Below, one piece after another: positions 45,801-48,800 of a DNA stretch of 64,000 nucleotides. Every line of letters begins with the position of its first letter. The first letter of the stretch is position 1. The notes under the pieces are model-generated. The model saw nothing but the letters and a program-made list of their open reading frames with translations. It was not told where the DNA came from and did not search any database. This stretch comes from Camelus ferus (lineage: Eukaryota). The translations under genes were made by a program, and so were the position numbers. The stretch is taken from contig NC_045696.1 of NCBI RefSeq assembly GCF_009834535.1, forward strand, positions 81,408,001-81,472,000, read 5' to 3'.

Positions 45801-48800
45801 TTTAGGAGCCCCAGCGGTGGGTGGTGGGGTTGTTAGATGAAGACAGTCAAAAGGTATAAACTTCCAGCTATAAGGTAAATAAGTACTGGGGATGTAAAGC
45901 ACAACATGATAAATATAATTAACACCGCTGTACATTGTGTATGAAAGTTGTTGAGAGTAAATCATAAGAGTTCTCGTCACCAAAAATAAAGACAAGCAAA
46001 AACCCCTCAGGAGCCCTAACACTAAAACGATTCTAGTCCTTCCCCCGACTCTTGTCTCCCATAGGTGACTCAAAGCAAAATAATACAAAACTCTTAAATA
46101 ACTGTTACGAAGTCCAACAAAGTCTGGATTTTCTCCATGATGACTATTTGGATGGGTATTTTTTTTAATATTGAATAATTGCTATCATTTTTCTCATTTA
46201 TTTTGTGCATCCCTACTCCGGTATCTAGTGCACAGGCAGGAGAGGGATGTCATTGCTCTCAGCTCTCACAGCCTGTAAATGGGTGAATCAGGACTCCATT
46301 CCTTCTTCTCTAACTCAGACTGTCAGGTCATTGAGGGTGAGGTTGTAGTCTTGACCCTCTTCCTACCACCAGTGCCAAACATAACAATTGATGTAAACAA
46401 CAAAGTGTTTAGTGAATGAAGGAGAGAGACACACACACACAGAGAAGAGAAGCTAGGGGAAGGAGTGGCATAAGGTGACGGTAAAAGCAGTTGCTGGGCG
46501 CCATTTATGAATCCATCATATTTCATCTGCTTCTCTTACAACATTGAACTCTAAAGAAAATGTAAGATTCTACAAGGTGTGAGTGTGTGAAATGTGTACA
46601 GTCCATCACATGAAAAGGGTTGCTCCTGGGGCTGAGGCTGCGCTCTGGTTGGGCTCCCACATGTCATGAGTGTGGGAGGCCTTTCCTGGGCTGAGGGATT
46701 TAGGGAATAACGCTGGAGGTCACATCTTTTTTCTGTGGGTGATGACAACACACGCCAATTTAGCAGGATTCCTGAAATTTAGCGCAGTATCACCATAATT
46801 TGGAAGTGACAGAACCTCTTCTCATAGGAGAACTTTTTCTTATTTAAACCATCTTCTTCAATCTTAGAGGGAAAAATAATCTAAGGTTTCCCCTCCTCCA
46901 ATCCAAGTCCTAGAGCCAGACCTGAGAAGAGAGTCTCCCACTGGCAGCTGGCTTAGTGCCCTCTCTATAGCCACCCCTCTTCCATATTTAAAGAGCTGCT
47001 CATCTGGAAAAGACAAAAACTCTAACTTGAAAAGATACAAACACTCCAATGTTCACAGTAGCACTATTTATAACAGCTGAGACGTGGAAGCAACCTAAAT
47101 GTCTATGGACAGATGAATGGATAAAGAAGCTGTGGTGTGTGTGTATGTATATATATATACTTGAATTTTGTATACTAACTTTATTTTTGGCCTCATCTTA
47201 CCTTCCCCAATCTTTTTTCTCATATCCACTTTTATGTTTCTATTAAAATATTTAGGCAAGCCAATTTAGATCCTGCTTTGCAAGGGTAATAGTGGAGTGA
47301 AAATGTTATCTTTTCAGCCTGCAGAATATTTTCAGTTTGAAAAGTTGCCAACCTTTAAAACTTAAGGAATTTTACATAAAAATCCATTATTTCTGGCTTC
47401 TCTTTAAAAATTAAAGATCACAAAACATTAGTCTCACATTGTAGCTTCCTTCTTCATATGGGACAAATAAACCCTGCCCACTCGCTATCATATTCTCAGT
47501 AATACAGACAGTTTTTCAGTCCTCTGGTCATCAAGGTTCTTCTTGCCTCCTTCACTTGTTTGTTCCTGCCTGGTTCCTGCTGACACTGGAATCTGTAACC
47601 TCTATTTTATAAGATATGATCAATTGTAAATAATCTATATGTGTTAGGATGTACACAACACAAATAATTGAAATAATCCTGTTTAAACATCTAACAAATA
47701 TTTTAAAGGAAAAACAAACAAAAATATACAGAACATTTGAATTATTGGAGCTATATTTCCTTATTTTATTTCCTTAGGTAATATTAACCCATTATAGACA
47801 TGTTTTGGGTATTCCACTGGACGACCGAAAAGCTGTCAACAACGATGCTATCCATAGTACAAAGGAAATGCCCACAGTTCCACATCGAGAGAGCCCAACA
47901 CCCATCTCTTGGCCTGAGGAAGAAACTATGGCATCTGCTAGCCTCATCACCTTGTTCTGGTCCCTGTCTGTGTCCAGCTTTGCAGTTGGTGGAATGATTG
48001 CTTCATTTTTTGGTGGGTTGCTTGGGGACCGGCTTGGAAGGTAGGCAAATTTCAAAAATAAGTATAAATACAGAAACTTCAGTAATTGGGGTTTGTATGA
48101 ATTTGTTTGGAAAGAAATCATCTTTCCTTTTGTGAATTAGTTTTAGAGTTGTTTTTTTCAACTCATGATCCTATGAGTTAGGTTGGTGTTGGACCAAATG
48201 ATGGACAAATCTGTTGCAACAATCTGCTTAATTGTGGAAGCATTTACAGCAAAAGTGAGTTTGCTATGCATTTTTATTTTTTTGTATTTTTTTTTGTAGG
48301 GGGAGGTAATTAGGTTTATTTATTTATTTTTAATGGAGGTACTGGGGATTGAACCCAGGATCTTGTGCACGCTAAGCATGCACTCTACCACTTGAGCTAC
48401 ATCCTCCCTCCCTGCTGTGTATTTTTAGATTCTCTCACTCTATAACTTGTAAAACATATTCAGAAACAGCTGCACAAATGGTGAACTCAGGAACTCAATA
48501 GAAGAGTCAGGAGTGGAATTTTTAACCTGGAAGTTCACTTTGGCTTCACCAAATCACTCCATTTCTCAGACATACGGGTTTTCATTTTCAGGTTATAATT
48601 TGGCATTTGGATCAGTCAAGTTCTAAGGTCAAGTCAATAACCCCAACTCCCAATTGCCCAATATACTTGGCACAGGGTGCCCAGCTGCTGCTGCTGCTAT
48701 TTCAAAGCCCCAAGCAGAAAAGAAACTAGTTTATTTCTGTACTCTGGTTTCTTTCAGGTGTTTTGGATTAAAAACATCAGTAGAACTTCTTTACACTCAA

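What the first reader, a model, noticed from the sequence alone, without database searches (positions are those of the whole stretch)
47838..47930. GLUT2 has lost its exofacial N-glycosylation sequon (Asn62 to His)
Seen: loop 1 reads [33 protein letters not shown]. Codon 62 (47853-47855) is CAT (His) while S63-T64 remain, and no other N-x-S/T occurs in the loop. The only sequon I find in the whole protein is NWT inside TM11. Established: human GLUT2 has N62-S-T as its single N-glycan site (mouse N-G-T, recalled), and MGAT4A/GnT-IVa-branched glycan retains GLUT2 at the beta-cell surface; its loss in mice impairs glucose-stimulated insulin secretion. Camelids are known for high blood glucose and weak insulin responses. 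Inference: a naturally non-N-glycosylated GLUT2 may contribute to that physiology, or the Ser/Thr/Pro-rich loop may compensate through O-glycans.
Basis: partly seen in the sequence, partly recalled or inferred. Interest (0 to 1): 0.8.

Follow-up and report, generated by a model that had tools for sequence, protein, structure and literature searches.

The report
Camel glucose transporter lacks sugar tag
The glucose transporter GLUT2 of camels and alpacas has lost the sugar-chain attachment signal that nearly all other vertebrates sampled keep; most bats, hedgehogs and hawks lack it too, so the loss is likely tolerated rather than a camel-specific cause of high blood sugar.

Summary
The window carries an intact 11-exon Camelus SLC2A2. 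Codon 62 is CAT (His), and the only N-x-S/T left is N443 inside TM11. Alpaca and the Camelus database proteins that contain the loop share H62, so it is not an assembly error. The site is normally strongly constrained: 118 of 118 distinct loops from other placentals keep N62-x-T64, with no change, while neighbouring Asn57/58 changed 21 and 15 times. But the loss is not unique. 29 of 30 bat loops lack N62, both hedgehog loops read N-S-I, and 8 of 8 hawk/eagle loops have no sequon; the other 65 non-mammal loops have one. Fruit-bat genera lacking it are reported to handle glucose well. The camelid loop is not Ser/Thr-enriched. Best reading: a working GLUT2 that likely carries no N-glycan and so escapes GnT-IVa/galectin control, tolerated under relaxed constraint (0.55). 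A share in the weak camelid insulin response is untested (0.18). I found no paper on these losses in 10 searches of an open-access library. This scan had not noted it before.

The parts
47853..47855 (+). Codon 62, CAT (His), in place of the Asn of the N62-x-T64 sequon
   Evidence: H62 also in P0001, P0093-P0095
47856..47861 (+). Codons 63-64 (Ser, Thr), the retained remainder of the sequon
   Evidence: T64 in 118/118 other placental and 30/30 bat loops
47829..47939 (+). GLUT2-specific extension of exofacial loop 1 (residues 54-90); no N-x-S/T/C; predicted disordered
   Evidence: pLDDT<50 over residues 51-86; loop position from PMC7930720
47778..48040 (+). SLC2A2 exon 3 (residues 37-124)
39859..39873 (+). 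SLC2A2 exon 1, coding part (MAEDK)
45188..45280 (+). SLC2A2 exon 2 (TM1), followed by a GC splice donor
52248..52372 (+). SLC2A2 exon 4
54992..55107 (+). SLC2A2 exon 5
56010..56172 (+). SLC2A2 exon 6
56676..56863 (+). SLC2A2 exon 7
59064..59168 (+). SLC2A2 exon 8
62251..62352 (+). SLC2A2 exon 9
63049..63252 (+). SLC2A2 exon 10; holds N443-W-T (63205-63213, position computed from the exon start), the only remaining sequon, inside TM11
63340..63540 (+). SLC2A2 exon 11, coding part with stop codon

Best explanation
Camel and alpaca GLUT2 has His in place of Asn62 and no other outward-facing N-glycosylation signal, so it is predicted to be made without an N-glycan yet likely still transports glucose, and the loss was likely tolerated rather than a cause of camelid high blood sugar. 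Shown: the substitution, its presence in both camelid branches, an intact gene, and the same loss in bats, hedgehogs and hawks/eagles. Inferred: one AAT-to-CAT change (ancestral codon not observed) on the camelid stem; no N-glycan; surface delivery and transport preserved; loss of the GnT-IVa/galectin-9 handle that sets GLUT2 surface half-life in mouse beta cells; and little cost of that loss, because camelid beta-cell glucose entry likely does not hinge on glycan-retained GLUT2, or because GLUT2 is held at the surface another way.
For: Intact ORF and splice sites; protein identical to annotated Camelus GLUT2. Camel keeps every column that is invariant in 40 vertebrate GLUT2s, among them Q193, Q314, Q315, N320, N349, E412, W420, N443, N447 (their role as the sugar site is recalled from GLUT1, offset 32). 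Human GLUT2 with residues 55-88 of this loop removed, N62 included, transports glucose and fructose in yeast (PMC7930720 passages). At least three other lineages live without the site: bats 29 of 30 loops lack N62 (19 no sequon, 10 only an N-S-T-P near residue 74), hedgehogs 2 of 2, hawks/eagles 8 of 8. In bats position 62 varies freely (D 16, E 6, A 5, gap 2, N 1; 4 changes, equal to the loop median), as expected once constraint is lifted. Rousettus leschenaultii cleared glucose faster than Hipposideros armiger, and Artibeus lituratus is described as glucose- and insulin-sensitive (PMC4954980 passages); sampled congeners of all three lack a sequon. Human beta cells depend mainly on GLUT1/GLUT3 (PMC7462922). 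At the rate of Asn57/58 a freed N62 had about a 0.23 chance of changing on the camelid stem, against at most 0.04 under the constraint seen elsewhere. Camelid changes are not concentrated in the loop (12 loop/31 rest against 24/88 in five other groups, Fisher p=0.40).
Against: The sequon is kept in 118 of 118 other placental, 8 of 8 marsupial/monotreme and 65 of 65 other non-mammal loops, so losing it normally costs fitness; a tortoise that lost the usual site carries a second one (P0356), and one unnamed bat sequence (P0174) has N62-N-T, a probable regain. Camelids do secrete less insulin (PMC11436879 passage), the direction the mouse model predicts. Vampire and nectar bats are also said to release little insulin (PMC11383804 passage). 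The yeast result concerns a deletion mutant in a foreign host; there N62Q alone did not rescue function. Sequence counts cannot tell relaxed constraint from positive selection; no codon test was run. No camelid glycosylation, trafficking or islet data were seen.
Confidence: 0.55

Rival explanations
1. One reading: without the N62 glycan, camelid GLUT2 is poorly retained at the beta-cell (and perhaps liver) surface, which blunts glucose sensing and contributes to the weak insulin response and high blood glucose.
For: In Mgat4a-null mice GLUT2 reaches the surface normally but is degraded faster and loses galectin-9 binding, and insulin secretion fails (reviews PMC7311491, PMC7462922; originals not seen). 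Camelids secrete less insulin and run 6-8 mM glucose. The site is otherwise invariant. The change is shared by Camelus and alpaca, as is the physiology.
Against: Sequon-less bat genera include good glucose clearers. Human islets use GLUT1/3, so the mouse model may not carry over. Reviews attribute camelid glucose levels to peripheral insulin resistance, PI3K/AKT divergence and high glucagon. One lineage, one trait: no statistical power.
Confidence: 0.18
2. O-GalNAc glycans on the Thr/Ser/Pro loop (T64, T69, S75, T77, S80) take over lectin-dependent retention, so the function of the N-glycan is kept by other means.
For: T64 is kept in 30 of 30 bat loops and both camelid loops although its Asn is gone; zero changes against a bat loop mean of 4.4 (Poisson 0.013, but 3 of 37 sites show zero, so weak). 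Bat and camelid loops are somewhat more Pro-rich (5.9 and 5.0 against 4.1). Hedgehog loops have 14 Ser+Thr, the top of the range. The loop is predicted disordered, hence accessible.
Against: Camelid Ser+Thr (8) and bat (mean 9.1) are not above other placentals (8.9) or other artiodactyls (8.4). In a mouse tissue O-glycoproteome GLUT2 appears in 2 of 7 supplementary files, both protein-abundance tables, and in none of the glycosite tables (one table was cut when stored).
Confidence: 0.14
3. The loss was selected: it uncouples GLUT2 surface level from diet-driven glycan branching, in lineages that swing between fasting and large nutrient loads (camelids, bats, hedgehogs, raptors).
For: Four independent losses of a site otherwise kept in 191 of 191 loops. 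In mice, high fat lowers Mgat4a and so GLUT2 surface level; a glycan-free GLUT2 would be immune to that switch.
Against: The ecological link is my after-the-fact reading; hibernating squirrels, bears and seals, which fast, keep the sequon (none among the sequon-less loops). No excess of loop changes on the camelid stem (p=0.40). Bat residue 62 varies freely.
Confidence: 0.12
4. CAT is a sequencing error or a rare allele.
Against: H62 stands in alpaca and in Camelus proteins under several accessions; alpaca differs from the window protein at 4 other residues, so it is an independent record.
Confidence: 0.01

Closest known systems
Human and mouse GLUT2 (SLC2A2; P0252, P0210)
   Same: Same 11-exon gene (exon count for human recalled), 524 aa, long exofacial loop 1, all invariant residues kept; 75 differences from the bonobo protein, 24 of them in residues 37-96.
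   Different: They carry N62-S-T / N62-G-T; the camelid protein has H62-S-T and no exofacial sequon.
Mgat4a (GnT-IVa)-null mouse GLUT2 and the GLUT2-galectin-9 lattice model (Ohtsubo 2005, 2011, 2013; seen only through reviews PMC7311491, PMC7462922, PMC10374759)
   Same: In both, GLUT2 cannot present the branched N-glycan that binds galectin-9 (predicted for the camelid).
   Different: The mouse has an under-branched glycan on an intact site, caused by a trans-acting knockout that affects many proteins; the camelid lacks the site in cis, as a fixed trait in healthy animals, with tens of millions of years (recalled) to compensate.
Engineered human GLUT2 N62Q and loop-deleted GLUT2 in yeast (PMC7930720)
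   Same: Removal of the N62 site; the loop-deleted form still transports glucose and fructose.
   Different: Artificial, in yeast; N62Q alone was inactive there, as was wild type; says nothing on beta-cell retention.
Bat, hedgehog and accipitrid GLUT2 (P0005, P0016, P0040, P0057, P0060, P0062, P0083, P0207 and kin)
   Same: Natural loss of the loop-1 sequon in an otherwise intact protein.
   Different: Different routes: Asn to Asp/Glu/Ala or deletion in bats (10 of 30 with N-S-T-P near 74), Thr to Ile in hedgehogs, Asn to Asp/Gly in hawks and eagles. Not described in the two bat SLC2A2 papers checked ('glycos' 0 hits).

Membership tests
GLUT2 (SLC2A2) orthologue | Best hits are annotated GLUT2; sugar-transporter MFS domain | tested here: met
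   Top hits all SLC2A2 with PF00083; spliced protein identical to Camelus GLUT2 P0093
GLUT2 (SLC2A2) orthologue | Extended exofacial loop between TM1 and TM2 that GLUT1/3/4 lack | tested here: met
   Residues 44-90 have no counterpart in the GLUT1 alignment; loop as long as in human; feature described in PMC7930720
GLUT2 (SLC2A2) orthologue | Gene order: downstream of a CNH-domain kinase gene (TNIK, name recalled) | tested here: met
   Kinase exons at 476-14850 on the + strand match the fused whale and sheep gene models P0006, P0014
GLUT2 (SLC2A2) orthologue | Low-affinity glucose/fructose transport | not testable with these tools
   Invariant residues are kept; no assay
Class I GLUT glycoprotein under GnT-IVa/galectin control | N-x-S/T sequon in exofacial loop 1 | tested here: not met
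   H62; no N-x-S/T/C in residues 30-100
Class I GLUT glycoprotein under GnT-IVa/galectin control | Any other exofacial sequon that could substitute | tested here: not met
   Only N443, equal to GLUT1 N411 within TM11
Class I GLUT glycoprotein under GnT-IVa/galectin control | Galectin-9 binding and Mgat4a-dependent surface half-life | not testable with these tools
   Needs cell experiments
O-glycosylated (mucin-like) loop | Ser/Thr enrichment or mapped O-GalNAc sites | tested here: inconclusive
   Not enriched over other mammals; no GLUT2 row in mouse glycosite tables; T64 kept in all 30 bat loops

The most novel reading that the evidence does not exclude
Camelids, bats, hedgehogs and hawks/eagles are four independent natural knockouts of the GLUT2 N-glycan. 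They have cut GLUT2 loose from the diet-sensitive GnT-IVa/galectin-9 switch whose failure causes beta-cell glucose blindness in mice, and in camelids this is one of the causes of the weak insulin response.
Probability: 0.2. Interest if true: 0.75.

Novelty: new variant of a known kind. Interest (0 to 1): 0.45.

Why it matters
Reviews call the GLUT2 N-glycan site conserved in vertebrates and needed to anchor the transporter in beta cells. The evidence I saw comes from a knockout of a branching enzyme that acts on many proteins. Healthy mammals and birds with no such site show that the glycan is not universally required, and they give natural alleles (camel H62, bat D/E/A62, hedgehog I64, one bat with N62) for a direct cis test of the lattice model. 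For veterinary physiology it adds one concrete, testable candidate for the low insulin output of camelids, though at present an unlikely main cause.

Tried and rejected
Sequencing error: rejected (alpaca and Camelus records). N443 as a substitute site: rejected (TM11). A second copy of the loop in the window: none; the whole genome is not held, so a second SLC2A2 copy elsewhere, and camelid MGAT4A, LGALS9 and GLUT1/3/4 sequons, were not checked. Non-consensus N-x-C in the loop: none. 'All bats lack N62': rejected, P0174 has it. Y59D as a co-change with the loss: also found in mole and gerbil, which keep N62. Ser/Thr enrichment and loop acceleration in camelids: not found. Run search: 14 DNA runs hold all 35 sampled words but all are marked as possible sources of this DNA, so not counted; 2 runs guessed as RNA hold 0.63 of the words, the share expected from exon 3 alone (0.628), a hint of expression only; no reads were laid. 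The protein tree did not recover bats as one clade (support 0.42), so the number of losses within bats rests on recalled species phylogeny. One search put a Rhinolophus record (P0160) among non-bats; corrected. Papers with nothing on the point: PMC2290885 (only abstract and references held), PMC4607523, PMC11076383, PMC5487954. Not held: Ohtsubo 2011, PMC4895571. A 2006 study of glucose transporters in llama and alpaca tissues, which I recall, was not found.

Full report
Observation. The stretch lies in exon 3 (47778-48040, + strand) of SLC2A2. Mapping the alpaca protein on the window gave 11 coding exons from 39859 to 63540, all with AG acceptors and GT donors except a GC donor after exon 2. 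The spliced 524-aa product is identical to P0093, held under three Camelus RefSeq accessions, and differs from alpaca P0001 at 4 residues. The window is therefore from a Camelus genome. Of 10 Asn residues only N443 is in an N-x-S/T or N-x-C context. It aligns with GLUT1 N411, is invariant in 40 of 40 aligned vertebrate GLUT2s, and lies in a confident helix of the AlphaFold model (helix 433-483; mean pLDDT 77), while the loop 51-86 is low-confidence. The protein thus has no exofacial sequon.

Is it fixed? H62 is in all 4 camelid records that include the loop (P0001, P0093, P0094, P0095); the fifth (P0096) is a short isoform without it. Alpaca is an independent record, so the change predates the split of Old and New World camelids (inference). 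Llama, guanaco and vicuna were not sampled. Read-level frequency was not obtained; the 14 DNA runs that hold all sampled words are flagged as possible sources of this DNA and are not counted.

How unusual is it? I gathered 396 proteins. For mammals I kept those of 480-600 aa with both loop anchors, one per distinct loop: 160 sequences. Dropped were short isoforms without exon 3, partial and fused gene models, one ferret model with an unrelated loop and no sequon (P0154; another ferret-group record has the normal loop), and three records that missed an anchor and do carry a sequon (P0070, P0204, P0205). Counts are of distinct loops, not species. Among 118 placental loops other than camelids, bats and hedgehogs, 118 have N62-x-T64. 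Positions 62 and 64 are the only 2 of 37 loop positions with no inferred change (median 16; the neighbouring Asn57 and Asn58 changed 21 and 15 times). All 8 marsupial and monotreme loops have a sequon. Of 73 distinct non-mammal loops (birds, reptiles, amphibians, fishes) 65 have one. The site is under strong purifying selection in most vertebrates sampled, as reviews state (PMC10374759, PMC7311491; passages).

It is not unique to camelids. Among 30 bat loops (14 named genera), 29 lack N62: Asp 16, Glu 6, Ala 5, deletion 2. Nineteen have no sequon, 10 have only an N-S-T-P near residue 74 (a following Pro disfavours use; recalled), and one unnamed sequence nested among vesper bats, P0174, has N62-N-T. 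Both hedgehog loops read N-S-I. The 8 non-mammal loops without a sequon are all from the hawk and eagle cluster; stork, emu, budgerigar and two songbird genera keep one. That makes at least four independent losses, by different routes. The gene tree did not group all bats (support 0.42), so treating them as one loss plus a regain rests on recalled species phylogeny.

How it most likely works. Shown: the missing sequon, an intact gene, and retention of every column invariant across 40 vertebrates. From the literature: in Mgat4a-null mice GLUT2 reaches the surface normally but loses galectin-9 binding and is degraded faster, with failing insulin secretion (reviews only; originals not seen). Human GLUT2 lacking residues 55-88 transports sugar in yeast, whereas N62Q alone did not rescue the inactive wild type there (PMC7930720 passages). 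Inferred: camelid GLUT2 carries no N-glycan, still transports, and lies outside GnT-IVa/galectin control. I favour tolerance of the loss (0.55). Once freed, position 62 drifts in bats at the loop's median rate. A freed Asn would change on a branch as long as the camelid stem with probability near 0.23, against at most 0.04 under the usual constraint. Camelid substitutions are not concentrated in the loop (p=0.40).

The physiological link. Camelids do secrete less insulin and are more insulin-resistant (PMC11436879 passage) and run 6-8 mM glucose, which a review ascribes to insulin resistance, PI3K/AKT divergence and high glucagon (PMC6389616 passages; 'slc2a' 0 hits). The direction fits the mouse model, so the link is not excluded (0.18). 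Against it: Rousettus leschenaultii cleared glucose faster than Hipposideros armiger, and Artibeus lituratus is called glucose- and insulin-sensitive (PMC4954980 passages), while sampled species of all three genera lack a sequon. For it: vampire and nectar bats are said to release little insulin (PMC11383804 passage). Human beta cells use mainly GLUT1 and GLUT3; I found nothing on camelid islets.

O-glycan compensation. The camelid loop has 8 Ser+Thr, bats 9.1 on average, other placentals 8.9 (5-14), other artiodactyls 8.4; hedgehogs have 14. Mouse GLUT2 occurs in 2 of 7 supplementary files of an in vivo O-glycoproteome (PMC10614836), both abundance tables, and in no glycosite table, one of which was cut when stored. 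The one hint in favour is that T64 survives in 30 of 30 bat loops and both camelid loops, though 3 of 37 bat loop sites are equally unchanged. I give this 0.14.

Novelty. Ten searches of an open-access library (top 20 titles seen for each that returned hits) showed no paper on natural loss of the GLUT2 sequon. The two bat SLC2A2 papers have no hit for glycosylation in their main text (supplements not read), and a selection scan that included SLC2A2 does not mention camels. Most subscription journals are not in the library, so this is not proof of absence. The scan's own notes hold nothing on GLUT2.

Verdict. A real, fixed and apparently undescribed variant of a well-known protein, made more useful and less camel-specific by three convergent losses. 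The causal tie to camelid glucose handling is a testable but minority reading. Interest 0.45.

Noticed in passing
P0005, P0016, P0033, P0040, P0048, P0051, P0057, P0060, P0062, P0161 and kin (bat GLUT2 loop 1): 29 of 30 distinct bat loops lack Asn62 (Asp, Glu, Ala or deletion); 10 carry an N-S-T-P near residue 74; Thr64 is kept in all 30.
   Followed up: yes
P0174 (unnamed protein, 94-95% identical to Myotis GLUT2): A bat sequence nested among vesper bats that has N62-N-T, a probable regain of the site.
   Followed up: partly
P0083, P0196 (hedgehog GLUT2): Sequon lost through Thr64 to Ile; the loop has 14 Ser+Thr, the top of the mammalian range.
   Followed up: partly
P0207, P0303-P0313 (Buteo, Haliaeetus, Harpia, Morphnus, Aquila): All 8 distinct hawk/eagle loops lack the N-A-S sequon that stork, emu, budgerigar and songbirds keep.
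   Followed up: partly
P0356 (Chelonoidis tortoise): The usual loop sequon is lost (Asn to Asp) but a second one a few residues on is present.
   Followed up: no
window 45281-45282: Intron 2 of SLC2A2 starts with a GC donor. Gene models of sheep, tamarin, naked mole-rat and flying fox read through the same spot (P0015, P0044, P0069, P0198), so it is likely shared across mammals and a cause of mis-annotation.
   Followed up: partly
window 56789-56791 (residue 297, position computed): Camelids have Ser at 297 where six outgroup mammals have Asn (a cytosolic N-S-S, not usable for glycosylation); it is one of 18 positions where the window protein differs from six agreeing outgroups.
   Followed up: no
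window 476-14850 (+): Eight 3' exons of a CNH-domain kinase (TNIK, name recalled) upstream of SLC2A2; whale and sheep gene models fuse the two genes, likely an annotation error.
   Followed up: partly
window 713-780: A perfect (TAT)n microsatellite of about 23 copies in a kinase intron.
   Followed up: no
window about 35000-37050: Broken open frames resembling LINE-1 ORF2 on the + strand, upstream of SLC2A2 (identity recalled, not tested).
   Followed up: no
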